From positions 102,153 to 166,152 of the forward strand of contig CAVQCF010000039.1 in NCBI GenBank assembly GCA_963710885.1: DNA of 64,000 nucleotides, read 5' to 3'. Within the stretch, counting starts at the first letter, position 1; each line of letters starts with the position of its first letter. This DNA is from an uncultured Acidobacteriaceae bacterium (GTDB lineage Bacteria > Acidobacteriota > Terriglobia > Terriglobales > Acidobacteriaceae). Below are positions 12,470 through 28,436 of this stretch, in pieces. Made by a program: the position numbers and the translations under genes. Under the pieces are notes generated by a model. That model was not told the origin of the DNA and did not search any database. It saw only the letters and a program-made list of their open reading frames with translations.

Positions 12470-12482
12470 CGTTCGCCTTCCA

Positions 12483-14957: not shown

Positions 14958-14975
14958 AGGCTACTCGCTGGCCGT

Positions 14976-15701
14976 TCAAGCGTGCGTGTCAGCCATCAGT
15001 TTCTGTAGCTCTTCCTCTGCCACAACCTTGCCGTCGAAGAGATGTACTTCTCGTTGCGCGTGCTTGGCGAACCGCGGATCGTGCGTCACCATGCAGATGG
15101 TCGCGCCCTCGCGGTGCAGGTTTTGCAGCAACTCCATCACCGCTTCGCCGTTGCGCGAATCCAAATTCCCAGTAGGTTCGTCCGCCAGCAGGATGGAAGG
15201 TTTTCCCCCAAGCGCGCGCGCTACGGCCACACGCTGCTGTTGACCGCCAGACAGCTGCGACGGATAGTGCCGGACGCGGTGCGCCATGCCGACGCGCTCC
15301 AACGCTTCCATGACCCGCGCCTTCCGGTCAGCCGCCGGCATCCGTTGGCGATAGGTCAGAGGCAGTTCGACGTTCTCGTAGACGGTGAGATCGCCAATCA
15401 GGTTGAAGCTCTGAAAGATGAACCCGATCTCCTGATTTCGAATGCGCGAACGCTCCGCAAAATCGAGGTTCTCAACTGTCTTATTGTTGAGTGAGTAGCG
15501 TCCCTGCGTGGGCGTATCGAGCAATCCGATGATGGAAAGCAGCGTCGACTTGCCGCAACCCGAAGGTCCCGACATCGCCACATACTCCCCTTTGGCAATC
15601 GAGAGGTGCACGCCGGAAAGAGCGTGCGTTTCAATTTCGTCGGTGTAGAAGACTTTGGTCAGATCCTGAATCTGGATCAACGGCTGTCCTGTTTCGGTCA
15701 T
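14976..15701 (-). CDS. ABC transporter ATP-binding protein, MacB/LolD/FtsE type (stand-alone NBD)
   Basis: 241 aa. Walker A GPSGCGKST, Q-loop IGFIFQ, signature LSGGQQQRVAVARAL, Walker B ILLADEPTGNLD, H-loop VTHD. Lies 18 nt upstream of the first permease. Confidence 0.95.
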   Translation of the reverse strand: MTETGQPLIQIQDLTKVFYTDEIETHALSGVHLSIAKGEYVAMSGPSGCGKSTLLSIIGLLDTPTQGRYSLNNKTVENLDFAERSRIRNQEIGFIFQSFNLIGDLTVYENVELPLTYRQRMPAADRKARVMEALERVGMAHRVRHYPSQLSGGQQQRVAVARALGGKPSILLADEPTGNLDSRNGEAVMELLQNLHREGATICMVTHDPRFAKHAQREVHLFDGKVVAEEELQKLMADTHA

Positions 15702-15746
15702 GGATTCTTGCCTCGATATGTTGGATTTCGTTCTTAACTTGCGGTC

Positions 15747-17006
15747 CTACTCCAAACGGATGCGATCCGTCTTATCCCAACGCGACATGTCGGAAAGAAT
15801 AACGGTATCGCCTTCGTGCAGGCCTTCGAAAACTTGAATCGAATTCACCGATTCCCGTCCCACCTTCACCGGCACACGTGACGCTTCTTTGCCGTCCGCA
15901 TCCAGCTTGAACAAGCTGATCGTACTGTTCTCCTGCCCAAACGCCGGACGCCCCACATAGAGAATGTTGTCCAGTCGTTCCAGATCGATCGTCCCATCCA
16001 CGCTCAAATCCGGACGCGCCCCCTCGGGCAACTGTCCGGTTAGTTTGACGTCGACGGTCACCGTTCCGTTTTGTACAGCAGGATCGACGCGCATCACGGT
16101 TCCGTTAATGATCCCGTTATGCGTGTCGATTGCCGCCGGTTCACCATCCCGCACGTCCCGCGCTTGAGTTTCCGCGATCTTCAATGTCGCCATCAGATGG
16201 TTCGGCTCGACCACCTTCGCAAGCATCGCTCCCGGCTGAACGTGCTGCCCCACCTGCAACGGAAGATCTACCAGCACTCCGTTAATGCCAGCACGCACTT
16301 TCAGGGCTTCCAGTTGCTTCTTCTTCAGACCAGCGAGGGTTTGCGCCTGGTCAACCTTCGCCTGTTCCTGTGCCAACTGAGTGTCGATCGCTTTCTTGTT
16401 GATCACCAGCCGCTGCTCTTCGAGATCGTTTCGTGTCGTGAGTTCGTCTGCTTTGCCCTTGGACGCTTTGTAGGCCAGGCCTGAAATCACTCCTAAGTCG
16501 TAAAGAGCCTTGTCGGTATCCGCCTGTCGTTGTGCCTGACTGTAGTCGGCGGTCACGGTGGCGGCGCCAGCCTTCTGAGTCATCAGGTCGCTGTCGAGCT
16601 TTACCTTGAAGCTCTGGTATTCGGCCTCCGCGGCCCTAAGTTGCAGGTCGGCGTCTACGGCCGCCTGTTCCACCTGGGGATTGCTCATCTCGAGAAGAAT
16701 GTCATCCGCCTTTACCTGCGAACCCGGCAGCATGCGGATGCGCACCACTGTAGCCTCAGTTTCAGCGGGAATCTGCCGAACCGCTTCCTGGCTGGGCACC
16801 AGCGAGCCTGGCCCCCGCACTTGGCGCAGCATCGATCCGTGTTTTACGGTGTCGGTCCACACCGTTCCGCGCTCGACTGAGGGTGCTGCCGGCCTAAGCC
16901 GCGATACTCCAACGGTTAAAGCTGCAATGACCACGATGCCGATGGCCGCGAACACAATCTGGCGGCGTAGTTTCTGACGCTTAAATTCTGGGCGAGCGAT
17001 ATCCAT
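15747..17006 (-). CDS. HlyD/MacA-family periplasmic adaptor (membrane fusion protein)
   Basis: 419 aa. N-terminal basic tail plus a single TM (IVFAAIGIVVIAALTV). A long coiled-coil-like stretch (QVEQAAVDADLQLRAAEAEYQ... QLAQEQAKVDQAQTLAGLKKKQLEAL) is followed by beta-barrel-like segments. First gene of the operon. Confidence 0.85.
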   Translation of the reverse strand: MDIARPEFKRQKLRRQIVFAAIGIVVIAALTVGVSRLRPAAPSVERGTVWTDTVKHGSMLRQVRGPGSLVPSQEAVRQIPAETEATVVRIRMLPGSQVKADDILLEMSNPQVEQAAVDADLQLRAAEAEYQSFKVKLDSDLMTQKAGAATVTADYSQAQRQADTDKALYDLGVISGLAYKASKGKADELTTRNDLEEQRLVINKKAIDTQLAQEQAKVDQAQTLAGLKKKQLEALKVRAGINGVLVDLPLQVGQHVQPGAMLAKVVEPNHLMATLKIAETQARDVRDGEPAAIDTHNGIINGTVMRVDPAVQNGTVTVDVKLTGQLPEGARPDLSVDGTIDLERLDNILYVGRPAFGQENSTISLFKLDADGKEASRVPVKVGRESVNSIQVFEGLHEGDTVILSDMSRWDKTDRIRLE

Positions 17007-17109
17007 CGAACTACCAATGGCAACTCGCCTTCCACACCCCAGAATGGCCTAAGTGTATGGATTGAAAGTAGGATAGGTAGGCCCCACTGAGCGATCAGCT
17101 GGCGGGCGG

Positions 17110-17143
17110 TGTCCACTGCCGGAACCAATTGTCCACTACCGGA
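17110..17143. promoter_or_regulatory. Two 14-bp direct repeats (TGTCCACTGCCGGA / TGTCCACTACCGGA) 20 bp apart in the divergent intergenic region; candidate operator
   Basis: Read directly from 17110..17123 and 17130..17143. Each unit contains the inverted half-sites TGTCC-N6-GGA(A/C)A. They sit between the MFP start (17006) and the ABC ATPase start (17324). Confidence 0.3.
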
Positions 17144-17323
17144 CAGCACAATACATAAGGACGGGCTGTTTTCGTGTCCAACCCGGGACCAAAAGACGGC
17201 AGACCACGCTCGCGGCCAGGGAACGAAGCTTGATCCGCGACAAGTGATAGTAGAATAGCTCCCCATGTTCGCTTACGAAGCGGACCGTGCGGTTCAGACC
17301 GATTCTCAAATCTCGGAGGTAGC

Positions 17324-18217
17324 GTGGCACTCACGATCAACGGTCTTTCCAAGACTTATCCTAATGGAGTGAAGGCGCTCAAGAACCTTTCACTCTCCAT
17401 TGGTAACAGCATGTTCGGCCTGGTGGGACCCAACGGCGCCGGAAAAAGTTCTCTGATGCGCACCATCGCCACGCTGCAGGATCCTGACTCCGGCACCGTC
17501 AACCTCGATGGCATCGACGTGCTGCGCCAAAAAGATCAAGTGCGCCGCATCCTCGGCTACCTGCCGCAGGAATTCGGCGTCTATCCCAAGATCTCCGCGC
17601 TCGACATGCTTCACCATCTCGCCGTGATGAAGGGCATGACCTCCTCGGCAGAGCGCAAGGAAACCGTCGACACGCTACTGCAGCAGACCAACCTGTGGGA
17701 CTCTCGCAAGAAAGCCCTCTCCACTTATTCCGGCGGCATGAAGCAGCGCTTCGGCATCGCGCAAGCCTTGCTGGGCAATCCGCGGCTCATCATTGTCGAC
17801 GAGCCCACGGCCGGGCTCGATCCCGCAGAGCGCAATCGCTTCCTGAACCTGCTCTCGTCTCTAGGCAGTGACCGCACAGTGATCCTTTCGACTCACATCG
17901 TCGATGACGTCCGCCAACTCTGCCCGCGTATGGCGATCATCGCTTCCGGCGAACTCTTGCTGGAAGGCGCGCCCAGCGAGACCATCGCAGCCCTCAACGG
18001 CAAGATTTGGTCGAAAGTAGTCGCGACCGGTGAGGAAGTGCGCGCCATCGAAGCATCGCTGCACGTCATCTCCACTCACCTGGTGGGCGGGCGGCACGAG
18101 GTTCGCGTGTACGCCGATAGCTCTCCCGGCGACGGCTTCGTCCCGGTCGAGTCCGATTTGGAAGACGTGTATTTCCTCAACCTATCGCAGCAGACCAAGC
18201 GTCCGCTGGTGAATTAA
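17324..18217 (+). CDS. ABC transporter ATP-binding protein (ABC-2/exporter type)
   Basis: 297 aa. GTG start preceded by GGAGG. Walker A GPNGAGKSS, signature YSGGMKQRFGIAQAL, Walker B LIIVDEPTAGLD. Has an extra C-terminal ~80 aa domain. Confidence 0.9.
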   Translation: MALTINGLSKTYPNGVKALKNLSLSIGNSMFGLVGPNGAGKSSLMRTIATLQDPDSGTVNLDGIDVLRQKDQVRRILGYLPQEFGVYPKISALDMLHHLAVMKGMTSSAERKETVDTLLQQTNLWDSRKKALSTYSGGMKQRFGIAQALLGNPRLIIVDEPTAGLDPAERNRFLNLLSSLGSDRTVILSTHIVDDVRQLCPRMAIIASGELLLEGAPSETIAALNGKIWSKVVATGEEVRAIEASLHVISTHLVGGRHEVRVYADSSPGDGFVPVESDLEDVYFLNLSQQTKRPLVN

Positions 18218-18242
18218 GACTCGAAACTGGAGGAATCCGACC

Positions 18243-21200
18243 ATGGCACTGTTCTGGGAGTTCTTCACCTTCGAGCTGAGGTTCCGCTTCAAGAGCCTCT
18301 CGACGTACATGTATTTCCTGCTCTGGCTCGTGTTTTCCTTCCTCAGCGTTGCGTCGGAAAGCTTTGGCCCGCTCGGAAGCGGCAATGGCAAGGTTCTCCT
18401 GAATTCCGCGTATGCCAATGCGTTCAACGACATTGGCGCTGCGCTCTTCGGCATCATCGTGATTGCCGCCATTTTCGGCACCTCAATTCTCCGCGACTTC
18501 CAGCGCGATACCTACCAGATCCTGTTTACCCAACCCATCTCAAAGTTCGCCTACCTCGGCGGACGCTGGGCCGGTTCCTTCGTCACCACTGTCTTCGCCT
18601 TCTCCGGAATGATGTTTGGCACGTTCCTCGGCACATTCGCCCCTTGGGCGGACCACACTCGCATCGGTCCAAATCATCTCTGGGCCTATCTCCATCCTTT
18701 TCTCTCGATCCTCGTCGTTCAAATCTTCTTTATTGGTTCCCTGTTCTTCGCGGTTTCCGCCCTCACTCGCAAAATCTTCATTGTCTATCTGCAGGGCGTG
18801 GCCCTGTTCATGATCTACGTCATCGGCTTGACCGTGTTCGTTGCCACCCGCTCCCTGGAACGTTTCTGGTCTAGCATCTTCGATCCCATCGGCATCATCC
18901 TGTTCAACAACGTCACCCGTTATTGGACCGTGATCGAAAAGAACACTCTATTCGTCTCGTGGTCCCCCGCTCTCCTCAATGGAGTGTTCCTCTATAACCG
19001 TCTCCTCTGGATTGGAGTTGGCGTCGTGTCGCTGATTTCGGTCTGGGCCCTCTTTCCCATGTCGGTGGAGGCTCTCACCGCGCGCTCCCAAGGACGCCGC
19101 GCAGCCAAAGCGAAGGAACAGGAACTCACGGAAGCGCAGCCGCTCCGCTCCCTCGTGCCCGCTCAGCTTCCCCGTGCCCATCAGTCCTTTACGGCCTCCA
19201 CTACGTTCGCTCAATACGTCTCGCTCTCGCGCCTCCGGATGCGGAGCATTTTTCGCGACATCCCGTTCTGGGCGCTCGTCGCTCTCATCGTCGCCTTCGC
19301 GGTTAACAACGGCTATTTCGCCGGCCGCATCGCCGAACAGAACGTCTGGCCGGTCACCTACCTCATGGTGCAAGCGGTCGAGGGAAGCGCCCTCCTCTTT
19401 CTCTTTATTGTCGCGGGTCTCTATGCCGCTGAATTGCTCTGGCGCGAGCGCGACAACCATTTCGACGGCATCCACGATGCTTTGCCCGTGCGCGAGTCGA
19501 CCGACTGGTTCTCGCGTCTTACGGCCATCGTCGCCGTCGAACTCATTCTCCTCGCCTTCGTCATGCTCATCGGCATCGTGATGCAAACCATCGCGGGCTA
19601 CTACCACTACGAATTCCTTCAGTACATGAAGGAGCTTTATGTAGTGACCTTCCCGCAGGTCCTTACCTTCATCTTGCTCGCCCTGTTTGTCCAGACCGTG
19701 GTCTCGAACAAGTTCGTCGGCTATGCCATCCTTTTGGGCGCCTTCGTGTTGATGCCGGTTCTCTACAACTTCGGCTGGGAGAACACGCTCTACCTCATTG
19801 GCCAGACTCCCGCCTACACGTACTCCGACATGAACGGGTACGGCCACTTCGTCCCATCGCTTTTCTGGTCGATCACGTATTGGTTCTCGATTTGTGCTCT
19901 GTTAGGCGTGTTCTCCATCGCCTTTGCACGCCGCGGCGCCGAAGACTCGCTGCGCGCTCGCACTCGTCTCGCCCTTCAGCGTGCTCCGCGGCTCATTCCT
20001 GCCGCCTTGCTATTCGCGATTATGGCTGTGGGCGCTGGCTCCTGGTACTTCTACAACGCTCACGTACTGAATGAATACCTCGATTCGAAAGCACGCCGGG
20101 GCATCCAGGCTGACTACGAACGTCAGTTCAAGAAGTACGAAAACCTGGACCAGCCCAAAGTCACGGCCGTCGATGCCACCATCAATATCTATCCCGAGCA
20201 CCGCTCCTTCGACGGAAGCGTGCGGATGACTCTGCAGAACAAGACCAACCAGCCGATCGCACAAATTCATCTCACCGACCAGAAGCAGTCGGTCACGAAC
20301 GTCCAGTTCGATCGCGCGTTCCACCTCGTCAGTGCCGCGCGGCGCAACATGTACTCGATCTATGCGCTCGACTCGCCGTTAGCACCGGGCCAGACGGTCA
20401 CCCTCACTTGCAATGTGGGCCACCATACCCGCGGCTTCCGCGACGGCAACGAACTCCCCGAGTTGGCTTATAACGGCACTTTTTTCGACTCCGACTACGT
20501 TCCTTACATCGGCTACAACGCCGGCATCGAACTCGATGATCCACGCCGCCGCCGCGAAGAGCATCTGCCGCCTCTCGAAGAAATGGCCCACCGCGGCGAT
20601 CCCGCGCACGCCGTAAACAACGTTTTCTTCCGCGGAGAGTCCGACTGGGTCACGTATCACACTGTGGTGAGCACGTCGGCGGACCAGATCGCGGTCGCGC
20701 CCGGATACCTCCAGCGCGAATGGCAGGACAAGGGGCGCCGCTACTTCGAATACAGCATGGGCTCGACGCACATCCTGGATTTCTTCTCTTATATTTCGGC
20801 GCGCTACCAGTCGCGGAGAGAGATGTACCACGGCCCCAACGGCGACGTTGCTCTCGAGGTTTACTACGATCCCGCACACACCTACGACGTCGACGACATG
20901 CTGGCCAGTTCCCGCGCCGGCCTCGACTACTATCAAAAAACCTTCAGCCCCTACCAGTTCAAGCAGTACCGCATTTTCGAGTTTCCCCGCTACCGTACTT
21001 TCGCTCAATCGTTTCCCAACACGATTCCTTACTCGGAGGGCATCGGCTTCATCAGTCGCGTCATCAAGCCGACCGACATCGATTTCACATATTTTGTGAC
21101 TGCCCACGAACTCGGCCACCAATGGTGGGCGCATCAACTGGTTGGCGCCGACGCCGAAGGTTCCAACATGATGTCGGAGAGCCTTGCCGAGTACTCCGCC

Positions 21201-21935
21201 CTGCAGGTGATGGCGCACAAGTACGGCCGCGATCTGATGCACCGCTTTCTCCGCCACGAACTCGATGGATACCTCCGCGGGCGCGCCGGCGAGGTCCGCC
21301 ATGAGCCGCCACTCGCGCTCGTGCAGCGCGAGCAATACGTCTGGTACCAGAAGGGCGGTCAGATTCTCTATACGCTGGCCGACTATATCGGCGAAGACAA
21401 ACTCAATCTCGCGCTCCACAATTTCCTGATGCAATACCAGTACGCCAACGCCAACAACCAGGTCGACGCTAACAACAACGCGCAGGCCTCCATGCCTATC
21501 AACAGTCCTTATCCGGACACTCGCATGCTGGTTGACGCTATCCGCGCTCAAACTCCGCCCGAACTCCAGTATCTGGTCGACGACGGCTTCAACCGCATCG
21601 TGCTCTACGACAACAAAACCGTCACTGCAACCTCGCAGAAGACTTCGGATGGCAAATATAAAGTCACGCTTGAGGTTGAGGCGCGCAAGATGCAAGCCGA
21701 CGGCAACGGCGCCGAAACGCCGATGCCCCTTGACGACTACATCGAGATCGGCGTCTTTAGCGGCAAGAAAGATCAGGAAAAACCGCTCTACCTCAAGAAG
21801 GAAAAGATCAGCGAGCCCCACAAAACGTTTGTGGTCGTGGTTGACGAAAAGCCAACTCTAGCAGGCATTGATCCTTACAATAAGCTCATCGACCGCAACG
21901 CCGATGACAACATGATCGATGTCACAGAGCAGTAA
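18243..21935 (+). CDS. Fusion protein: two tandem ABC-2-type permease modules (about 13 TM segments) + C-terminal M1-family zinc metallopeptidase domain
   Basis: 1230 aa, with GGAGG before the ATG. By eye there are ~6 hydrophobic helices in aa 20-275, ~6 in aa 340-560 and one more at ~585-605. After that the chain is soluble. It carries VTAHELGHQWW (HELGH = aa 955-959, nt 21105..21119) and a downstream Glu in MMSESLAEY, which is the gluzincin HEXXH-(X18-19)-E signature of M1 peptidases. Confidence 0.85.
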   Translation: MALFWEFFTFELRFRFKSLSTYMYFLLWLVFSFLSVASESFGPLGSGNGKVLLNSAYANAFNDIGAALFGIIVIAAIFGTSILRDFQRDTYQILFTQPISKFAYLGGRWAGSFVTTVFAFSGMMFGTFLGTFAPWADHTRIGPNHLWAYLHPFLSILVVQIFFIGSLFFAVSALTRKIFIVYLQGVALFMIYVIGLTVFVATRSLERFWSSIFDPIGIILFNNVTRYWTVIEKNTLFVSWSPALLNGVFLYNRLLWIGVGVVSLISVWALFPMSVEALTARSQGRRAAKAKEQELTEAQPLRSLVPAQLPRAHQSFTASTTFAQYVSLSRLRMRSIFRDIPFWALVALIVAFAVNNGYFAGRIAEQNVWPVTYLMVQAVEGSALLFLFIVAGLYAAELLWRERDNHFDGIHDALPVRESTDWFSRLTAIVAVELILLAFVMLIGIVMQTIAGYYHYEFLQYMKELYVVTFPQVLTFILLALFVQTVVSNKFVGYAILLGAFVLMPVLYNFGWENTLYLIGQTPAYTYSDMNGYGHFVPSLFWSITYWFSICALLGVFSIAFARRGAEDSLRARTRLALQRAPRLIPAALLFAIMAVGAGSWYFYNAHVLNEYLDSKARRGIQADYERQFKKYENLDQPKVTAVDATINIYPEHRSFDGSVRMTLQNKTNQPIAQIHLTDQKQSVTNVQFDRAFHLVSAARRNMYSIYALDSPLAPGQTVTLTCNVGHHTRGFRDGNELPELAYNGTFFDSDYVPYIGYNAGIELDDPRRRREEHLPPLEEMAHRGDPAHAVNNVFFRGESDWVTYHTVVSTSADQIAVAPGYLQREWQDKGRRYFEYSMGSTHILDFFSYISARYQSRREMYHGPNGDVALEVYYDPAHTYDVDDMLASSRAGLDYYQKTFSPYQFKQYRIFEFPRYRTFAQSFPNTIPYSEGIGFISRVIKPTDIDFTYFVTAHELGHQWWAHQLVGADAEGSNMMSESLAEYSALQVMAHKYGRDLMHRFLRHELDGYLRGRAGEVRHEPPLALVQREQYVWYQKGGQILYTLADYIGEDKLNLALHNFLMQYQYANANNQVDANNNAQASMPINSPYPDTRMLVDAIRAQTPPELQYLVDDGFNRIVLYDNKTVTATSQKTSDGKYKVTLEVEARKMQADGNGAETPMPLDDYIEIGVFSGKKDQEKPLYLKKEKISEPHKTFVVVVDEKPTLAGIDPYNKLIDRNADDNMIDVTEQ

Positions 21936-23691
21936 ACAATCGGGTCGCGTGACCAACTTCGAGAGAAGCTGCCGCAGGAACATCGCCGCTCTGCTGGCGT
22001 TGTGCCTGCTGTCTGGCGCTCCCAGTCTGCTGGCCCAGCTCCCAACGCACAGGGCCGCAACCGGCAAAGAGAAGACAGTAGTGCCGGCCGCATCCGCGAT
22101 CCAGTTCGAAAACGTAATCGAACAATCCAAGATCAAATTCAAACTCAAAAACAGCGTCAGTCCCCAACGCTATACGTTTGAAACCATGGTCGGCGGAGTC
22201 GCCGTCTTCGACTACAACAACGACGGCTTCCTGGACATCTTCTTCACCAATGGCGCGGCGATCCCGTCTCTGGAAAAGAGCGATCCAAGTTACTGGAACC
22301 GCCTCTTCCGCAACAACGGGGACAGCACCTTCACCGATGTAACCGATAAAACGGGCCTGCAAGGGATCGGCTATTCGATGGGTGTAGCCGCCGGCGACTA
22401 CGACAACGATGGATTCGTCGATCTCTACGTGACCGGAGTCAACCGCAACCAGCTTTTCCATAACAATGGAGACGGCACCTTCACTGACGTAACCGAAAAG
22501 GCGGGAGTCGGCGGCATGGTTCCCAAACTCGGCAAAGCGTGGTCGGTCGCAGCGGGATGGTTCGATTTCAACAATGATGGGCTGCTCGACCTGTTTGTCG
22601 TGAACTACCTCAATTACAGCATCAAAACCGCGACTCTCTGCGTCCAGCAGGGACTTCCGGCTTATTGCTCGCCGGTCGATTTTCTGGGAACGCCCAACAT
22701 TCTTTATCGCAACAACGGCGACGGCACATTTACCGACGTCTCGGAACAGTCCCACATTTCCAAGTACGTCGGCAAAGGGATGGGTCTTGCGTTCGCCGAT
22801 TATGATAACGACGGATTCACCGACATCTTTGTCTCCAACGATACTTTCGAGAATTATCTTCTGCACAACAACCGGGACGGAACTTTCACCAACGTGGCAC
22901 TGCTCGCCGGGGTTGCCTACAACGCATTCGGCAACGCCATCGCCGGCATGGGCGCGGATTTCCGCGACATCGACAACGATGGCAAGCCGGATATTTTTGA
23001 AACAGCCATGTTCGGGGAAGGCTTCCCTCTCTACAAGAATCTGGGCGATGGTCAGTTTCAGGACGTCACCGCAACTGCAGGATTGAGCGCGCTGACCAGC
23101 CGCTCCACCGCATGGGGAGTGGGGGTCTTCGATTTCGACAACGACGGGAACAAGGATCTGTTCACCGCCAACTCCGACATTCTGGACAACTCGATGGAAC
23201 TGGCGCACCGGCCTTATCCGCTACCCAATCGAGTGTTCCGTAACAAAGGCGATCTTGCCTTCGAGGATCTGAGTGCCAAGGCCGGGACATCCTTCCAGGT
23301 TCCGGCTCCGCATCGCGGCGCGGCCTTCGGCGACTTCAACAACGACGGCAAGATCGATGTCGTTGTGACGGTCCTGAACGGCCCGCCCGAAATATGGATG
23401 AATCGTTCCAGCACCCCAAACCACTGGATCATTCTGAAGCTGATCGGCGTCAAATCCAATCGCGACGGGCTGGGAACGAAGATCAAAGTGACAACAGCTC
23501 TCGGCTCGCAGTACAACCAGGCAACAACCGCGGTCAGCTATAACTCTTCGAGCGATAAGCGCGTGCACTTCGGCCTGGGCTCGGCCGGCGTCGTAGACGC
23601 GATCGAACTCACGTGGCCGAGCGGCATCAAGCAGGTTTTAAAAAACGTCAAAGCAGATCAGATCCTCACCGTGACGGAAAGTGGCCCGTGA
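21919..23691 (+). CDS. Secreted FG-GAP/VCBS-repeat beta-propeller protein with C-terminal ASPIC/UnbV domain (CRTAC1-like)
   Basis: 590 aa. Signal peptide AALLALCLLSGAPSLLAQ. Repeated units of the form DYDNDGFxDLFVxN...[18 protein letters not shown]. C-terminal NRDGLGTKIKV...SSSDKRVHFGLG...IELTWPSG is typical of UnbV/ASPIC. The start overlaps the previous stop by 17 nt. Confidence 0.85.
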   Translation: MSQSSKQSGRVTNFERSCRRNIAALLALCLLSGAPSLLAQLPTHRAATGKEKTVVPAASAIQFENVIEQSKIKFKLKNSVSPQRYTFETMVGGVAVFDYNNDGFLDIFFTNGAAIPSLEKSDPSYWNRLFRNNGDSTFTDVTDKTGLQGIGYSMGVAAGDYDNDGFVDLYVTGVNRNQLFHNNGDGTFTDVTEKAGVGGMVPKLGKAWSVAAGWFDFNNDGLLDLFVVNYLNYSIKTATLCVQQGLPAYCSPVDFLGTPNILYRNNGDGTFTDVSEQSHISKYVGKGMGLAFADYDNDGFTDIFVSNDTFENYLLHNNRDGTFTNVALLAGVAYNAFGNAIAGMGADFRDIDNDGKPDIFETAMFGEGFPLYKNLGDGQFQDVTATAGLSALTSRSTAWGVGVFDFDNDGNKDLFTANSDILDNSMELAHRPYPLPNRVFRNKGDLAFEDLSAKAGTSFQVPAPHRGAAFGDFNNDGKIDVVVTVLNGPPEIWMNRSSTPNHWIILKLIGVKSNRDGLGTKIKVTTALGSQYNQATTAVSYNSSSDKRVHFGLGSAGVVDAIELTWPSGIKQVLKNVKADQILTVTESGP

Positions 23692-23694
23692 GCT

Positions 23695-25370
23695 CTATTT
23701 TTGCCCGCCATTGGCCGACAAACGCTGCGCCAGGTCGGTTTGCCCATTGCGGCGCAGAAGCTCGATCAGGTCTTTCATGATCTGTGGATTGTTTCTCCCA
23801 TACGCCGCCACTGTTTCAGCAGTCAGGTCGGCATCCGATACCTTGCCGATCCGGAAGTAGGAATCGCACAGCATGTACAGCAATTCGGGAGTCATGGTTC
23901 TGGACTTCGCCAGATGTTCCGCCGCCTCGGACCATAGTTCCCCTGGTGGTACCGAACCTCGCCCATCTCGGCAATCGCCAGTCTGATAGTTCGGGTCGTT
24001 TGCAGTTCTGCCTTGAAACTCGTTCTCGGCCGCTTTCAGGTCGCCCTGTTTCAGCGCCAGGATTCCCTCGATAGGTATGCGCGCCTCGAACCGTCGGCTG
24101 AATCTCCAGCGCATGATGAAGGCTGCGCACACCATTCCCTGTATCTCCCATGAACAGATACAGTTTGCCAACAAACACATATGCGTCCGCGGGAGTGGCG
24201 GCCGTTCCCTTGAAGTGTTCCCGATACAACTGCAACGCATCCTCCTCGCGATGCTCGATCAGCAATTGGCGGGTCTGCGCTTTGATGGGACTCTCACGTT
24301 CGTCGCTCTCCGCCGAGCGGACGAATGTCCTCTGTTCCATCATCAACTGATGCAGAGCCGCCTCGTGCTGCGCGTCCTGCCGTCCGGCCCATCGCGGCGT
24401 ACGCCCGTGAGAGATAGAAATGTGCCAGCAATCGCGTCGGGTCGAGCCGTAACGCCGATTGCAGGTCGATCGACCGCTGCGGGATAGTTCTTCAGTTCCA
24501 GTTCGCATTGGCCAAGCCCCAGCAACGCCTCGACATCGTCGGCCTTGAACGCGAGAACGCGTTCGAATGCGTTCTTGGCCTCCTGCCATTTGGCGAGCTT
24601 CACATCCGCGGTAGCCAGCAGTTGCAAGGCGGTCACATCGTTGGGATGGGATTCGAACTGCGCGGGCGGCATACTGTGCGGCGCCGGCAAGATCCATCAA
24701 TTTGTAGTCTGCCGCGGCGATGTCGTAATCAATCCGCGGCAGCGTCGCATCAGAGTGCTGCGCTTTGAGCAGCCATTTCAGCCCACCGGCGTAATCCCCG
24801 GTGCCGCACAGCAGTTCTCCATATTTCTGCCACACCGATACATTGTCGGGCTCGGCCTTCAAACTCTGCCGGATGGCGCGCAGCGCCAGCTCGTCCTGCC
24901 CATTCAGGTGATAGGCCTGGGCAAGATAAAACTGCGCGTCTCCATCGCCGGGAAGAATCCGGACGCAGTGCTCGAGCAGTTTGATGGCTTCTTCTTTTTG
25001 TCCGGTGGCCAGTTTGTCGATGCCTACTTTCAGCAGCAGATCTCCATCGTTCGGAGCAAGCTTCAGAGCCTCTTCATAAGCGGCCGCCGCTTCGGAGGTG
25101 TGTCCCGGCCTCCTCCAGCAACATGCCCTTCAGCTTGATTGCCGGAGCAAAGTCCGGATGCTGCTCAAGCAAGCGCAGGGTAAGATTCATCGCACCCTGC
25201 TTGTCGCCGTGCTCGGCGAGGCTGAGCGCCTGGTGGACTTGCCGCATCAGGGGCGACTCGGCGGGATGGCCCGCGTTCTGCGCCACGAATCGCAGACCCG
25301 CACCGGCACCAGACAGCGCCGCCAGAAGCAGGACTGCACGCAGACGATTTGCGGTTGCCCCGATCGCCAT
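23695..25370 (-). pseudogene. TPR-repeat protein with signal peptide, interrupted by at least 7 frameshifts (pseudogene or consensus errors)
   Basis: Sensible TPR-like translation hops between frames. 25370->~25085 gives MAIGATANRLRAVLLLAAL...KLKGMLLEEAG. ~25085->~24665 gives HTSEAAAAYEEALKLAPNDGDLLLKVG...AEPDNVSVWQKYG. ~24665->~24480 gives FESHPNDVTALQLLATADVKLAKWQEAKNAFERVLAFKADD. ~24480->~24375 gives SIDLQSALRLDPTRLLAHFYLSRAYAAMGR. Next come HEAALHQLMMEQ...ALEIQP, then IPIEGILALKQGDLKAAENEF. A compensated pair of shifts lies near 23983/23943 (LAIAEMGEVRYHQG), and the gene ends ...LAQRLSANGGQK. Confidence 0.7.
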
Positions 25371-25371
25371 A

Positions 25372-27233
25372 TTAAGGAAGCTTCACGCGGTGCTCGGATG
25401 GCTTGCTGGAGACCACTCCCTGCCCTTCGCGCACCACATAAAATCGGTCGGCAGCTAGATTGGCGAGCGTCTCCTTCTTCCCATCCGGCCACAGCACTTC
25501 AGCCTGATCGACACGCTCGTGAGTGCCCAGCCCGAAGTGAATGCGCAGATCATGCTGCGACAGGTAGCTTCCGCCGCTGATGACTTCGCCCAGCTGCACG
25601 AGGTCTCCGGCCGTGGCTCGCACGCGCGCATTCAAGGCCAGGCGGTTGCTCTTCACGCCTTCCAGTTGAAAACTGATCCAATGGTTCTGCGGGCCACCTT
25701 CGGGACGCAGAATCATCGGCTTGCCCACCAGGTTTTCAACCACCGCTTCCATCTTTCCGTCGTTGAACAGATCGCCCACGGCAAGTCCGCGGCTCACCTG
25801 CGGAATCTGAATCGCGTCGCCGACCAGCTTGCTGGCATTCCTGAAAGTTCCGTCTCGTTGATTGATAAACAGAAGCTTCGGCTCCAGATAGCGGGTGGCC
25901 GGTGCGCGCTGTCCACCTGCGGATACACGTGCCCGTTGACCAGGAAGAAATCCTGCCAGCCGTCGTTGGCGAAATCGACAAATGCGTCTCCCCAGCCCAC
26001 ATAGCCTTGCGTGCCCCGGGCGATGCCCGAGGCGATCGACGTATCGGTAAAGTTCATCCCGTCCATCGTTGCGATAGAGCGCGGCGTACTCAATGTCGAA
26101 ATGCGAGAGCAGCAGCGACATGCGCCCGGTGTGCAGATAGTCGCCGAAGGCAACTCCCATGTTGGCCTGTTCAACTCCGTCTTCGTTCGCGGCCACGCCG
26201 GAAGTAAGCGCAACATCCTCAAATTTTCCCGCGCCGTCGCCCTGATAAAGATAGTTCGCCTGGCCATCGTTGGTCACAAAGAGATCGAGCTTTCCGTCGT
26301 TGTCGAAATCCGACCAGATGGCGGTCAGACCATAGCGGCGTTCCGGATCGTCGACGCCGGCCTTCTTCGACAACATCGGTAAATGTTCCGTCGCCGTTGT
26401 TGTGATAAAGATTGTCGGGAGATCCCTTCAGCCCGCGCGGGCCGCACTGCACATCGAGTCCCAGATACTTGCACGACTTTGCCGGAACCGAACACGGGCA
26501 GATCGTCCAGATGAAAATCGACATAGTGCGAAACAAAAAGATCGGCCCAGCCGTCGCCGTCATAATCGCCGAAAGCTGCGCCCGTCGCCCATCCGGAATC
26601 GCTGGCCAGTCCGCTGGCCTTGGTCACGTCGGTAAATGTTCCATCGCCGTTGTTGCGATAGAGCACCACGCCGTTCAGACAGGTCACCAGCAGATCGGGC
26701 CAGCCGTCATTGTTGTAGTCGCCAACGGCCGCGCCCATCGCCCAGCAGGGATAGCCTACGCCGGCCTTGTCGGTGACATCGGTAAATGTTCCGTCGTGAT
26801 TGTTATGAAACAAGGCGCTGCGCGCTTTGACGCCGTGCAGCGCCATGTCCACGCTCTGCGCATTCGTAAAATAAATGTCCGGCCAGCCATCGCCGTCGTA
26901 ATCGATCAGCGCGACTCCGCCGCTCATCGACTCGGCAATGAATTTCGCCTCAGGACTCGACATGTGCTCGAAATGAATTCCAGTGGAATCCGTGATGTCG
27001 ACCAGATGCGGATAGTTGGTGAGCGCGCCGGTTGCCTTGCTCTCGGCCTCGGCTTTTTGACGCTCTGCGGGCGGCAGGGGGGTCGGCGTTCCCATCTGTG
27101 CCATCGCCCTCGCACTCAGGCAAAGAACAGTAATAAAGATAGCGCCAAACAATCGGAGAAACGCCGGCGACTGCACCCGCGTTGCTGGCGCGACTCGTGC
27201 TCCGATCCTACGGTTCTTCCGGCTCGTCCGCAC
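25372..27233 (-). pseudogene. FG-GAP/VCBS-repeat + ASPIC/UnbV protein (paralog of 21919..23691), interrupted by about 4 frameshifts
   Basis: The N-terminal ORF 26325..27233 has a signal peptide and [15 protein letters not shown] / [11 protein letters not shown] repeats. The frame changes near 26480 (to [35 protein letters not shown]) and near 26372 (to [32 protein letters not shown]). It changes again near 26065 (to GMNFTDTSIASGIARGTQGYVGWGDAFVDFANDGWQDFFLVNGHVYPQVD) and near 25900 (to ATRYLEPKLLFINQRDGTFRN...). The gene ends with the UnbV-type SGGSYLSQHDLRIHFGLG...VLWPDG. Confidence 0.75.
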
Positions 27234-28436
27234 GAATTTCCTTGGGCTGAACCTGCAATTCCTTATAGAGAGCGCTCAGCTTCTCTTTCATCTCCTTGAA
27301 TTTCTTGTAGAGCTCCATCTCGCGCTTGGCGTCGTCCGCGCGCCCCATCTTCCGGTACAGCGTCGCCAGGCGGTAGTGGGCCGTGGCGTTGGTGGGCTCC
27401 AGTTGCACGGCCTCTTCGAGCAAAGCCAGCGCCTTGTCCGATTGATTCATCTCAATCAGGGTCTTCGCCAAGCCCAAGCTTGGCATCGGCATCGGCCGGC
27501 TGCAGCTCGACGGCTTTGGTGTATTCCTGATAAGACTGCTCTCGATTTCCCTTCTGCGCGTCGATCTCCGCGAGCCGGAGAATCGCTTTCTCATCCTGCG
27601 GATTTTCCCGCAGCGCGGCGCGATATTCCTGTTCGGCCTCCTTCTTCACGGCCTCGTCGCTCGAAGTGTGCAGCAGTTCGGCCAATTCGAAATGAATGCC
27701 GGGAAGATGCGGGTTGATCGCGATGGCCTTCCGATACTGCGCGATGGCGCCGTTAGTATTTCCCTGCCGAGCGTCTTCGTGAGCCAACAGCTGATGCATC
27801 TGCGCGGAGTCCGGCGCTGCCAGCGACAGCGCGAGCATCGACTCGCCTGCAAGATCGGAATAGGTGCGATAGGCGGCATAGAGCACCTCCGCATTCTCGG
27901 GATCGGCCTTGCGCAACTGCGCGATGACTGCCGGCGGCCTTCTCTAGATCGCCGCTCTCGCGTATCGAGGCCGACCAGTTCCAGCCCAAGTTGCACCTGA
28001 AAGCGCGGGTCCTGGATCGCGGGAAAGGCGGCTTCCATATCCTTGCGCGCATTGGCAAAGTCCAGCGTGCGGCTCTCGGCCATTCCCAGCAGTCCTTGAA
28101 TCTTGGCTAGGCCGGGCTGCCGCTCCATCGCAGCACGCGCGCGAAAGTGAGGAATGGACATCGGCGGCCTTGCCCTGAAAGAACAGCAGAACGCCCAGGT
28201 TGGCCTGCGCGTCCACACTCGTCGGGATCGATGTCCACCGCAGCCTGGAACTCCGGAATCGCCAAGGCAGGCTGCTTTTCATCGAGGTAGCCGCGGGCCT
28301 TCTGGATGTGCGCCGCAAACTCCTGCTGCTTGTCTTGGATGGCCTGAGCTGGGGTAGCCTGAGAAAGACAAAACGCAGCGCCCAGCAGCAAGACGAACCC
28401 CGGAAAGGCAATTCGAAGCTTCGCGATCATTCGCAA
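27208..28436 (-). pseudogene. TPR-repeat protein with signal peptide, interrupted by at least 4 frameshifts
   Basis: Five overlapping minus-strand ORFs each carry part of a coherent TPR protein: 28107..28436, 27944..28411, 27646..28218, 27452..27916 and 27208..27594. The parts read MRMIAKLRIAFPGFVLLLGAAFCLSQA...AVDIDPD, then DAQANLGVLLFFQGKAAD, then SIPHFRARAAMERQPGLAKIQGLLGMAESR...QVQLGLELVGLD. They continue with ADPENAEVLYAAYRTYSDLAGE...AVELQPADADAKLGLG and finally LAKTLIEMNQSDKALALLEEAVQLEPTNATAHYRLATLYRKMGR... Confidence 0.7.

What the first reader, a model, noticed from the sequence alone, without database searches (positions are those of the whole stretch)
17324..23691. ABC exporter whose double permease is covalently fused to an extracytoplasmic M1 metallopeptidase, co-transcribed with a CRTAC1-like propeller protein
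Seen: an ATPase (17324..18217) is followed 25 nt later by a 1230-aa ORF with two ABC-2-like 6-TM modules and a 13th TM. A ~620-aa soluble domain follows, with HELGH (aa 955-959) and the downstream Glu (SESLAEY). The next gene, a secreted FG-GAP/UnbV protein, overlaps the stop by 17 nt. With an odd TM count and a cytoplasmic N-terminus, the peptidase domain should face the periplasm. Established: M1 peptidases are gluzincins. Peptidase-containing ABC transporters are known with N-terminal C39 cysteine peptidase domains (bacteriocin exporters). I know of no characterised transporter with a C-terminal M1 domain, although such fusions may carry automatic annotation names. Inference: this is a transport-coupled processing machine, either exporting and then trimming a peptide or protein, or anchoring a peptidase at an exporter. 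The co-transcribed propeller protein is a possible substrate or partner.
Basis: partly seen in the sequence, partly recalled or inferred. Interest (0 to 1): 0.75.

Follow-up and report, generated by a model that had tools for sequence, protein, structure and literature searches.

The report
ABC transporter fused to periplasmic peptidase
A real, widespread but unstudied two-gene machine in which an ATP-driven membrane transporter carries a zinc peptidase on its outer (periplasmic) face, so cytoplasmic ATP may be coupled to peptide cleavage outside the cytoplasm; the neighbouring propeller gene is not a conserved partner.

Summary
An ABC ATPase gene (17324-18217) lies 25 nt upstream of a 1230-aa ORF (18243-21935). 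That ORF has two homologous 6-TM ABC-2 modules, a 13th TM helix and a 626-aa M1-fold zinc peptidase domain, predicted periplasmic.

It is not an assembly artefact. Full-length relatives at 33-97% identity occur in hundreds of species of Acidobacteriota, Bacteroidota, Gemmatimonadota, Pseudomonadota, Myxococcota and Planctomycetota. RefSeq already names them "ABC transporter permease/M1 family aminopeptidase". I found no paper on them.

- The only conserved neighbour is the ATPase (73 of 74 loci). The CRTAC1-like gene is adjacent only in relatives at 90% identity or more, so the proposed partnership is not supported.
- The zinc ligands and the catalytic Tyr are near-invariant, but the GXMEN exopeptidase motif is replaced family-wide by F-A-Q-S-F-P-N, and the helical lid domain is absent. 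The domain is probably an active peptidase but not a canonical aminopeptidase.
- The membrane part is a type V ABC fold. Its closest matches are NosY, Rv1217c and PmtCD.

Best reading: an ATP-coupled periplasmic peptidase that extracts an amphipathic peptide-like substrate and cleaves it. The main rival is NosDFY-like mechanical gating. Interest is moderate to good; this is a new variant of a known kind.

The parts
17324..18217 (+). ABC ATPase (NBD), 297 aa. Walker A GPNGAGKS (17426-17449), Q-loop, signature YSGG (17726-17737), Walker B LIIVDEP (17786-17806) and H-loop STH are all intact. It would act as a homodimer on the single fused permease.
   Evidence: PF00005 E 1.6e-30. Best NCBIfam matches are DrrA and GldA, both below the curated cut-offs. 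Motifs located. Closest solved NBDs are ABCA4/7/3/1 and NosF. An orthologue lies immediately upstream on the same strand in 73 of 74 loci, at 54-90% identity.
18243..21935 (+). 1230-aa fusion protein: TMD1, cytoplasmic linker, TMD2, TM13, then a periplasmic M1-fold peptidase.
   Evidence: AF2 model of aa 1-1200: mean pLDDT 87.1, pTM 0.82.
18243..19058 (+). TMD1 (aa 1-272): N-terminal amphipathic connecting helix plus 6 TM helices, ABC-2 / type V fold.
   Evidence: Hydropathy. AF2 helices. Profile hit to NosY 7o0y_D at E 7.6e-4. Foldseek NosY TMt 0.68-0.72.
19059..19253 (+). Cytoplasmic linker (aa 273-337), K/R-rich. Its poorly conserved centre (aa 296-312) is low-confidence in the model, and its C-terminal end (helix 318-338) is the connecting helix of TMD2.
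   Evidence: 10 K+R. Mean column conservation 0.25. pLDDT below 50 at aa 296-312.
19254..19928 (+). TMD2 (aa 338-562): second 6-TM ABC-2 module, homologous to TMD1.
   Evidence: PF12730 E 5e-8. hhalign TMD1 against TMD2: probability 95.8%, E 8e-9.
19992..20054 (+). TM13 (aa 584-604; AF2 helix 570-608). It acts as a signal-anchor that carries the chain from the cytoplasmic end of TM12 to the periplasm.
   Evidence: Hydropathy. The preceding loop has 5.8 K+R on average across the family. AF2.
20145..20882 (+). M1 domain I-like beta-sandwich (aa ~635-880).
   Evidence: AF2 strands. Foldseek aligns about 600 columns to ERAP1/ERAP2/IRAP, which extends beyond the ~195-aa catalytic domain into the flanking beta-domains; the per-domain assignment is my inference from aligned length and model secondary structure. 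Not detected by sequence profiles.
20883..21467 (+). M1 catalytic (thermolysin-like) domain (aa 881-1075). F-A-Q-S-F-P-N sits at the GXMEN position (21000-21020), HELGH at 21105-21119, zinc-ligand E979 at 21177-21179 and catalytic Tyr1035 at 21345-21347.
   Evidence: PF01433 E 3.9e-10. ERAP2 alignment. Profile against PDB: ERAP2 at 1.4e-14. Conservation in 49 diverse relatives: H955 48, E956 49, H959 48, E979 49, Y1035 48. GXMEN absent.
21597..21932 (+). C-terminal beta-sandwich (aa 1119-1230), like M1 domain III. It ends in the conserved motif P-x-x-A-G-I-D-P-x-x-K-L-I-D-R-x-x-x-D-N (21852-21911). No helical domain IV follows.
   Evidence: AF2 strands. Motif conservation. The chain ends at aa 1230, and 6a8z, the two-domain M1 of Deinococcus, matches with TMt 0.68.
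21919..23691 (+). CRTAC1-like secreted FG-GAP/UnbV propeller gene. The start may instead be the GTG at 21949. It is a neighbour and probably co-transcribed here, but it is not part of the conserved module.
   Evidence: Pfam. Adjacency only in relatives of 90% identity or more. Absent elsewhere.

Best explanation
This is a self-contained two-gene type V ABC machine. Two copies of the ATPase would sit on one pseudo-heterodimeric 12-TM permease. A 13th helix from that permease tethers a single catalytically competent M1-fold zinc peptidase to the periplasmic face.

Proposed mechanism (inferred): like other type V exporters of hydrophobic cargo (PmtCD, Rv1217c-Rv1218c, ABCA/ABCG), the permease takes an amphipathic, membrane-associated peptide-like substrate by lateral access. 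It expels that substrate on ATP binding and hydrolysis directly at the tethered peptidase, which cleaves it.

The peptidase has lost the GXMEN amino-terminus anchor and the lid domain. It is therefore expected to cut internally, or to cut N-blocked or acylated peptides, rather than trim free N-termini.

The likely role is 'expel and destroy': clearance or detoxification of membrane-active peptides or lipopeptides, or turnover of membrane peptide remnants. Maturation of a dedicated secreted product is less likely.

Shown: the architecture, the predicted topology, the conservation of catalytic residues, the obligatory ATPase partner and the lack of any other conserved partner. Inferred: the substrate class, the direction of transport and the coupling.
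For: - The fusion is ancient and under selection. 143 of the 150 best 50%-identity cluster representatives are 1150-1270 aa long and nearly all align end to end with the query; 1935 hits have E<=1e-30. At least 393 species loci carry it across six or more phyla.
- The ATPase is immediately upstream in 73 of 74 loci and is more conserved (54-90% identity) than the permease-peptidase protein (33-40%). Its motifs are intact.
- The zinc site and the catalytic Tyr are conserved in at least 48 of 49 relatives, and the catalytic domain is the most conserved region of the protein (mean 0.61).
- GXMEN is replaced by a conserved F-A-Q-S-F-P-N, and there is no domain IV.
- The topology is C-out in 49 of 49 relatives.
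- The TMD has a type V fold and matches Rv1217c, a fused double permease that exports hydrophobic drugs by lateral access. It also matches PmtCD, a peptide exporter.
- The NBD is closest to the ABCA lipid transporters.
- No conserved biosynthetic, precursor or partner genes surround the module. This argues for a general substrate rather than a dedicated one.
Against: - No substrate, transport or peptidase activity has been measured for any member.
- The top structural hit and the only PDB sequence hit of the permease is NosY. On present understanding NosY does not translocate cargo.
- Foldseek E-values for the TMD are weak (>=0.01).
- Loss of GXMEN could also mean a non-peptide substrate, or altered rather than endo-type specificity.
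Confidence: 0.4

Rival explanations
1. Mechanotransmission without transport, as in NosDFY or FtsEX. The ATPase cycle moves the permease's periplasmic loops, which open, close or position the docked M1 domain. Cytoplasmic ATP thereby gates or powers periplasmic proteolysis of a periplasmic substrate, and nothing crosses the membrane.
For: - NosY is the only PDB sequence hit of the TMD profile (E 7.6e-4) and the top Foldseek hit (TMt 0.68-0.72). NosF is among the closest solved bacterial NBDs.
- JGI annotators file relatives under the NosY COG.
- NosY works with a periplasmic partner, NosD, docked on its outer face; here the partner is fused.
- The peptidase lacks its own lid domain, so an external gate is conceivable.
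- Highly conserved motifs lie in the periplasmic loops (DPFG, TRYWT, YSDMNGYGHF). pLDDT of loop 501-530 is 4-9 points higher when the M1 domain is present.
- pTM 0.82 suggests a confidently predicted arrangement of the domains relative to one another.
Against: - The peptidase is attached by a single C-terminal helix. It is not inserted between core TM helices, as the periplasmic domains of the mechanotransmitters MacB, FtsX and LolC are.
- The similarity to NosY is remote.
- The other structural neighbours (Rv1217c, PmtCD, ABCG, ABCA) are true transporters.
Confidence: 0.3
2. Co-localisation only. The ABC module exports an unrelated hydrophobic compound, and the M1 domain is simply a membrane-anchored periplasmic peptidase with no functional coupling.
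For: - The peptidase hangs on one extra TM helix at the C-terminus.
- Stand-alone two-domain M1 enzymes are active on their own (6a8z family hit; activity from my knowledge of that work).
Against: - The fusion has been kept intact for a very long time across at least six phyla, with no split versions among the best 150 representatives apart from fragments.
- This M1 subfamily, with its F-A-Q-S-F-P-N motif, was seen only in the fused form among the hits I could examine.
- An anchor alone would not require 12 further TM helices and a dedicated ATPase.
Confidence: 0.12
3. One reading: a PCAT-like export-and-maturation machine for a dedicated secreted peptide or protein, with the co-transcribed CRTAC1-like propeller as cargo or partner.
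For: - In this window and in its relatives of 90% identity or more, the propeller gene follows within -17 to +91 nt on the same strand. No terminator is predicted between the genes.
- M1 enzymes can remove RiPP leaders: class III lanthipeptide AplP-type peptidases (my knowledge; lead).
Against: - The propeller gene is absent next to the fusion in the 86% and 85% relatives and in 79 of 80 species loci.
- No downstream Pfam family recurs in more than 3 of 74 loci, and no precursor or biosynthetic genes are conserved.
- The propeller has its own Sec-type signal peptide, so it does not need an ABC exporter.
- It belongs to a CRTAC1/TPR cluster that abuts the operon.
- PCATs have a different fold, peptidase clan and peptidase location.
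Confidence: 0.05
4. Digest-and-import. The tethered peptidase cleaves periplasmic peptides, and the permease imports the products for nutrition.
For: - Carriers are mostly proteolytic or polymer-degrading heterotrophs.
- Some type V ABC proteins move substrate inward (ABCA4, some plant ABCGs; my knowledge).
Against: - No substrate-binding protein gene is conserved nearby.
- I know of no bacterial ABC-2 system that acts as a nutrient importer.
- The structural neighbours that transport anything are mainly exporters or extruders, and the top hit, NosY, is not known to translocate cargo.
Confidence: 0.05

Closest known systems
Rv1217c-Rv1218c of Mycobacterium tuberculosis (PDB 8K1M-8K1P; PMC11406275)
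   Same: Two ABC-2 TMDs are fused in one polypeptide and served by a homodimer of a separately encoded NBD. The fold is the type V exporter fold, with connecting and coupling helices. Foldseek aligns about 600 columns of the TMD model (TMt 0.45-0.51). The architecture is described.
   Different: Rv1217c ends after TM12. It has no 13th helix and no extracytoplasmic enzyme domain. It is a drug (rifampicin) efflux pump of a mycobacterium.
NosDFY(L) of Pseudomonas stutzeri (PDB 7O0Y, 7ZNQ, 7QBA)
   Same: NosY is the best structural match and the only sequence match of the permease, and NosF is a close NBD. It is a type V ABC module that carries a periplasmic protein, NosD, on its outer face. ATP hydrolysis changes that partner's state (my knowledge of Mueller et al. 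2022).
   Different: NosY is a homodimer of single 6-TM chains. The partner is a non-covalently bound beta-helix protein for copper delivery, not a fused peptidase. No nos genes lie near the fusion.
Peptidase-containing ABC transporters (PCATs; bacteriocin/lantibiotic exporters with an N-terminal C39 domain)
   Same: A peptidase is covalently joined to an ABC transporter, so that cleavage and transport of a peptide are coupled.
   Different: In PCATs the peptidase is a cytoplasmic cysteine peptidase at the N-terminus, the fold is type IV with a fused NBD, and the genes sit in bacteriocin clusters. Here the peptidase is a periplasmic zinc peptidase at the C-terminus, the fold is type V, the NBD is separate and no conserved cargo genes are present.
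M1 aminopeptidases (ERAP1/ERAP2/IRAP, PepN) and the two-domain M1 of Deinococcus radiodurans (PDB 6A8Z)
   Same: The beta-sandwich plus thermolysin-like catalytic fold is shared, as are the HEXXH...E zinc site and the catalytic Tyr in the Y-x-K-G motif. Like 6A8Z, it lacks the helical domain IV.
   Different: The GXMEN exopeptidase motif is replaced by F-A-Q-S-F-P-N in the whole family. The spacing is HEXXH-X19-E rather than X18. The domain is membrane-tethered to an ABC permease. Sequence similarity is low (about 12-16% identity in structural alignments).
PmtCD of Staphylococcus aureus (PDB 6XJH, 9Q1Y)
   Same: It is a type V ABC-2 exporter that handles amphipathic, membrane-active peptides (phenol-soluble modulins). 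It is a structural neighbour of each TMD (TMt about 0.6).
   Different: It has no peptidase. It comes from a monoderm, and it exports the producer's own peptides rather than degrading them.

Membership tests
ABC transporter, type V (ABC-2) fold | A dedicated NBD with Walker A, Q-loop, signature, Walker B and H-loop motifs | tested here: met
   PF00005 E 1.6e-30. All motifs located. An NBD gene is adjacent in 73 of 74 loci.
ABC transporter, type V (ABC-2) fold | Two 6-TM domains, each with an N-terminal connecting helix and a coupling helix between TM2 and TM3, without domain swapping | tested here: met
   PF12730 above the gathering cut-off for TMD2. TMD1 is homologous to TMD2. AF2 helices 2-17 and 318-338 (connecting) and 91-94 and 408-413 (coupling). 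Foldseek returns NosY, Rv1217c, PmtCD and ABCG. This rests on a predicted structure, not a solved one.
ABC transporter, type V (ABC-2) fold | ATP-dependent translocation of a substrate | not testable with these tools
   Needs biochemistry.
Peptidase family M1 (gluzincin aminopeptidases) | HEXXH plus a downstream Glu as zinc ligands | tested here: met
   H955, E956, H959 and E979 are conserved in 48-49 of 49 relatives. PF01433 is above its cut-off.
Peptidase family M1 (gluzincin aminopeptidases) | Catalytic Tyr stabilising the transition state (Y-x-K-G) | tested here: met
   Y1035 aligns with the ERAP2 'vsYnKGa' Tyr and is conserved in 48 of 49 relatives.
Peptidase family M1 (gluzincin aminopeptidases) | GXMEN exopeptidase motif that anchors the substrate's free amino terminus | tested here: not met
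   The ERAP2 'GAMEN' aligns with F920-A-Q-S-F924. The family consensus there is F-A-Q-S-F-P-N. A G.MEN string is present in only 2 of the 150 representatives, and I did not check whether either lies in the peptidase domain.
Peptidase family M1 (gluzincin aminopeptidases) | Domain architecture of N-terminal beta-domain, catalytic domain, (beta-sandwich) and C-terminal helical lid domain | tested here: inconclusive
   Equivalents of domains I-III are inferred from about 600 aligned columns to ERAP1/IRAP and the model's secondary structure. The helical domain IV is absent, as in the two-domain enzyme 6A8Z.
Peptidase-containing ABC transporter (PCAT) | N-terminal cytoplasmic C39 cysteine peptidase domain on a type IV exporter with a fused NBD | tested here: not met
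   No C39 hit. The peptidase is C-terminal, M1 and periplasmic, the TMD is type V and the NBD is a separate gene.
Peptidase-containing ABC transporter (PCAT) | Gene neighbourhood with double-glycine leader peptides or biosynthetic genes | tested here: not met
   No conserved neighbour other than the NBD in 80 loci.
NosDFY-type assembly machine | NosY-like permease and NosF-like NBD | tested here: inconclusive
   The similarity is remote but specific: profile E 7.6e-4, top Foldseek hit with TMt 0.68-0.72, NosF at 7.6e-37.
NosDFY-type assembly machine | Periplasmic NosD partner and a nos gene cluster (nosZ, nosL, nosR) | tested here: not met
   None of these genes is found in the window's neighbourhood or in related loci.
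   The gene is adjacent only at 90% identity or more. There is no tblastn hit in 79 of 80 loci. FG-GAP/UnbV is not among the recurrent downstream families.

The most novel reading that the evidence does not exclude
The family is a general way for diderm bacteria to spend cytoplasmic ATP on proteolysis in the ATP-free periplasm. A type V ABC engine would feed or mechanically gate a covalently tethered, lid-less, GXMEN-less gluzincin. That would make it an 'ATP-dependent periplasmic protease', distinct from FtsH (cytoplasmic active site), from FtsEX (activates separate cell-wall hydrolases) and from PCATs (cytoplasmic cysteine peptidase).
Probability: 0.3. Interest if true: 0.8.

Novelty: new variant of a known kind. 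Interest (0 to 1): 0.55.

Why it matters
ABC systems with covalently attached enzymes are rare. The only well-studied peptidase fusion, the PCAT, has its peptidase in the cytoplasm.

This family places a conserved and apparently active zinc peptidase on the outside of a type V ABC engine. It occurs in hundreds of soil and aquatic species, including cultivable Granulicella, Algoriphagus, Chryseobacterium, Tenacibaculum, Massilia, Janthinobacterium and Nannocystis.

If transport and cleavage are coupled, this would be a new logic for envelope quality control or for resistance to membrane-active peptides. It would also be a tractable model for how type V ABC modules talk to extracytoplasmic domains, a question shared with NosDFY and the ABCA transporters.

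The result also corrects the automatic name. 'Aminopeptidase' is probably wrong for a domain that has lost the amino-terminus anchor.

Tried and rejected
- **Assembly or frameshift fusion.** Rejected. The gene is one ORF in 78 of 80 species loci, in more than 120 near-identical metagenome proteins and in 143 of 150 diverse representatives.
- **CRTAC1-like, TPR or MacB-operon genes as conserved partners.** Rejected by tblastn, by all-against-all clustering of flanking ORFs and by a Pfam tally of 74 downstream neighbours.
- **Anti-phage defence.** PADLOC gives only generic ATPase similarity for the NBD and nothing for the fusion.
- **Regulatory RNA or tRNA near the operon.** None was found. The promoter and terminator scans were uninformative.
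- **Literature.** Seven searches for the fusion under various wordings found nothing. An eighth, on NosDFY, gave nothing usable.
- **Exact look-up of the window's own protein.** No gene is on record for it. The cluster look-up shows it exists in NCBI/ENA without a name.
- **Geometry of the active site relative to the permease outlet.** I could not measure it, because model coordinates are not exposed.
- **Sequence profiles for the region between TM13 and the catalytic domain.** They gave no Pfam hit. Only the structure search suggested the M1 domain I fold.

Full report
**1. Observation**

The three ORFs exist exactly as described.
- The ATPase is 17324-18217 (297 aa, GTG start with GGAGG 7 nt upstream).
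- After a 25-nt spacer comes the 1230-aa ORF 18243-21935 (ATG with GGAGG 8 nt upstream).
- The 590-aa ORF 21919-23691 follows.

Pfam confirms the domain content.
- Gene 1 has ABC_tran.
- Gene 2 has ABC2_membrane_4 (aa 342-498) and Peptidase_M1 (aa 893-1073).
- Gene 3 has six FG-GAP_3 repeats plus UnbV_ASPIC.

The ATPase has intact Walker A, Q-loop, signature (YSGG), Walker B and H-loop motifs.

The 17-nt overlap of gene 3 depends on the ATG at 21919. An in-frame GTG at 21949 corresponds to the start called in a 97%-identical relative, 13 nt after the stop there.

**2. Anatomy of the large protein**

Hydropathy gives 13 hydrophobic helices.
- The first module scores only sub-threshold for an ABC-2 family.
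- A profile-profile comparison shows that the two halves are homologous: aa 6-273 against aa 327-571, hhalign probability 95.8%, E 8e-9. The 'double permease' is therefore an internal duplication.
- The positive-inside rule gives N-in, 13 TM, C-out. Across 49 diverse relatives, predicted inside loops hold 26.3 K+R on average and outside loops 9.5, and inside exceeds outside in 49 of 49. The 626-aa C-terminal part is therefore predicted to be periplasmic.

An AlphaFold2 model of aa 1-1200, built on 72 sequences, has mean pLDDT 87.1 and pTM 0.82. Confidence is low only in the cytoplasmic linker (aa 296-312) and in a loop at aa 1074-1084. In the model:
- Each TMD has an N-terminal amphipathic connecting helix (aa 2-17 and 318-338).
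- Each TMD has a short coupling helix between its second and third TM helices (aa 91-94 and 408-413).
- A long helix at aa 570-608 forms TM13.
- Beyond TM13 come a beta-sandwich (aa ~639-875), a helical catalytic domain (aa 883-1065) and a final beta-sandwich (aa 1119-1199 and beyond).

**3. The peptidase domain**

Foldseek aligns about 600 columns of the model to ERAP1, ERAP2 and IRAP at E around 1e-16. It also matches the two-domain M1 enzyme of Deinococcus radiodurans, 6A8Z, with TMt 0.68.
- The soluble part therefore appears to correspond to M1 domains I-III; this rests on aligned length and the model's secondary structure.
- The chain ends at aa 1230 with no helical lid domain IV.

A family profile hits ERAP2 at 1.4e-14, but only over the catalytic domain.

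In 49 relatives sharing only 31-55% identity, the catalytic residues are near-invariant:
- H955 in 48 of 49
- E956 in 49 of 49
- H959 in 48 of 49
- E979 in 49 of 49
- Y1035, the catalytic Tyr, in 48 of 49

The catalytic domain is the most conserved region of the protein. This argues for an active enzyme.

The GXMEN motif, however, is not there.
- ERAP2's GAMEN aligns with F-A-Q-S-F.
- The whole family has a conserved F-A-Q-S-F-P-N instead.
- In M1 aminopeptidases the Glu of GXMEN binds the substrate's free alpha-amino group (established knowledge of the family).
- I therefore infer that this domain is not a canonical aminopeptidase. It is more likely to cut internally, or to act on N-blocked substrates.

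The spacing is HEXXH-X19-E. A conserved C-terminal motif, AGIDPxxKLIDRxxxDN, lies beyond the modelled range and remains unexplained.

**4. The membrane engine**

- A profile of the TM region finds a single PDB sequence, NosY (7o0y_D, E 7.6e-4).
- A separate AF2 model of aa 1-614 has pLDDT 83.7 and pTM 0.76.
- Searched with Foldseek, it returns NosY first (TMt 0.68-0.72).
- Next comes Rv1217c (8K1M-8K1P), aligned over about 600 columns with TMt 0.45-0.51, then PmtCD and the ABCG proteins.
- E-values are weak (>=0.01), but the ranking is coherent: this is a type V ABC fold.

Rv1217c-Rv1218c is described as two TMDs fused in one chain plus an NBD homodimer. It has a type V fold and lateral access for hydrophobic substrates (PMC11406275). 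That is the same subunit logic as here, without the 13th helix or the enzyme domain.

The ATPase is closest to the NBDs of the ABCA lipid transporters and to NosF. Its best NCBIfam matches are DrrA and GldA, both below the curated cut-offs.

**5. Distribution**

The fusion is not an artefact and not rare.
- More than 120 full-length proteins at 82-100% identity come from independent assemblies.
- An exhaustive search of 1.84 billion cluster representatives gave 6292 hits, 1935 of them at E<=1e-30.
- Of the best 150 representatives (33-62% identity), 143 are 1150-1270 aa long, and nearly all align end to end with the query. The few short ones look like fragments.
- A scan of one genome per species found at least 393 loci.

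Carriers include Acidobacteriota, Bacteroidota (Algoriphagus, Chryseobacterium, Tenacibaculum, Emticicia, Adhaeribacter, Roseivirga), Gemmatimonadota, Burkholderiales (Massilia, Janthinobacterium), Lysobacterales, Myxococcota, Planctomycetota and Bdellovibrionota. The window itself is from a relative of Candidatus Sulfotelmatobacter (names).

RefSeq and UniRef already use the product name 'ABC transporter permease/M1 family aminopeptidase', for example WP_271994435.1 of Nannocystis radixulma. Seven full-text searches found no paper on the fusion.

**6. Neighbourhood**

- In 73 of the 74 loci that include upstream DNA, an orthologous ATPase (54-90% identity) lies immediately upstream on the same strand. 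In one locus it lies immediately downstream.
- Clustering all flanking ORFs of the 80 loci yields no other family present in more than 5 loci.
- A Pfam tally of the 74 immediate downstream neighbours yields no family in more than 3.

The CRTAC1-like gene is adjacent only in very close relatives.
- It is 13 nt downstream in the 97% relative and 91 nt downstream in the 90% relative.
- It is missing in the 86% and 85% relatives.
- In the close relatives it is the first member of a CRTAC1/TPR/CRTAC1/TPR cluster.
- It carries its own signal peptide.

The conserved unit is therefore the two-gene cassette. The propeller is a lineage-specific neighbour.

**7. Mechanism**

Shown:
- a conserved NBD
- a pseudo-heterodimeric type V permease
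- one tethered periplasmic zinc peptidase per complex, with a conserved catalytic site, a lost amino-terminus anchor and no lid
- no dedicated cargo genes

My preferred reading (confidence 0.4) is 'expel and destroy'. The permease would extract an amphipathic peptide-like substrate by lateral access, as PmtCD, Rv1217c and the ABCA proteins do with their hydrophobic cargo. It would then release that substrate at the tethered peptidase.

The main rival (0.3) is NosDFY-like mechanotransmission. Here ATP hydrolysis would gate a docked periplasmic domain and nothing would be transported.
- For it: NosY is the best hit. The periplasmic loops carry the most conserved TMD motifs. Their model confidence is higher when the M1 domain is present.
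- Against it: the peptidase hangs on one C-terminal helix rather than being inserted between core helices, as in MacB, FtsX and LolC.

Lesser rivals are:
- simple co-localisation (0.12)
- digest-and-import (0.05)

**8. Comparison and novelty**

The system works like a type V ABC module with an extracytoplasmic partner (NosDFY, ABCA), and it shares its subunit plan with Rv1217c-Rv1218c. Conceptually it parallels the PCATs, but it fails every PCAT membership feature. The peptidase is M1 at fold and zinc-site level and fails the GXMEN criterion.

The architecture is recognised by automatic annotation, but as far as I could find it is uncharacterised. I rate it a new variant of a known kind, with interest 0.55.

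The most novel reading still open is that this is a general device for ATP-dependent proteolysis in the periplasm (probability about 0.3).

Noticed in passing
window 23695-25247 (- strand): The TPR gene downstream of the propeller is intact in close relatives (514 aa in L081, 553 aa in L083). In the window it is spread over three reading frames (tblastn pieces in frames -1, -2 and -3). This is either a pseudogene or indel errors in the assembly.
   Followed up: partly
window 25372-27233 (- strand): A second CRTAC1-like (FG-GAP/UnbV) gene is split into two overlapping ORFs (334 aa and 302 aa) in different frames. The orthologue in L081 is a single 612-aa gene. Across 17001-27973 the window is 89.9% identical to L081 at DNA level with 67 gaps, although the fusion protein is 97% identical.
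   Followed up: partly
window 10019-17006 (- strand): A divergently transcribed MacB-type tripartite efflux operon lies upstream: an HlyD-like adaptor (15747-17006), an ABC ATPase (14976-15701) and two large FtsX/MacB_PCD permeases of 824 and 816 aa, each with duplicated domains. It is syntenic with the ABC-M1 operon in the 90-97% relatives but not beyond.
   Followed up: partly
window 28539-30767 (- strand): A 742-aa outer-membrane beta-barrel (OMP_b-brl_4, E 1e-154, TonB-dependent-receptor-like). The profile match starts at position 150 of 838, so the gene may be N-terminally truncated or its start miscalled.
   Followed up: no
window 21852-21911 (aa 1204-1223 of the fusion): The C-terminal motif P-x-x-A-G-I-D-P-x-x-K-L-I-D-R-x-x-x-D-N is strongly conserved (P1204 and D1210 invariant, N1223 in 48 of 49). 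It lies outside the modelled range (aa 1-1200) and its role is unknown.
   Followed up: partly
L084 2163-3891 (Granulicella pectinivorans): In this cultured acidobacterium an ECF sigma factor gene and two small unannotated genes sit directly upstream of the ATPase-fusion pair, on the same strand. This may be an envelope-stress-type regulator of the cassette. It is not conserved in other loci.
   Followed up: no
L029 749-5289; L015 5044-5908; L065 6001-10624: Three variants among relatives. In L029 the ATPase gene follows the fusion gene instead of preceding it. In L015 the ATPase match is broken into two frames. In L065 the fusion match spans 4.6 kb instead of about 3.6 kb, which suggests an insertion.
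   Followed up: no
L014 (MAG labelled 'uncultured Clostridia'): A full-length relative at 41% identity sits on a 212-kb contig of a MAG labelled Clostridia. It is the only apparent monoderm among the 80 loci. The cause may be a binning or classification error, or horizontal transfer.
   Followed up: no
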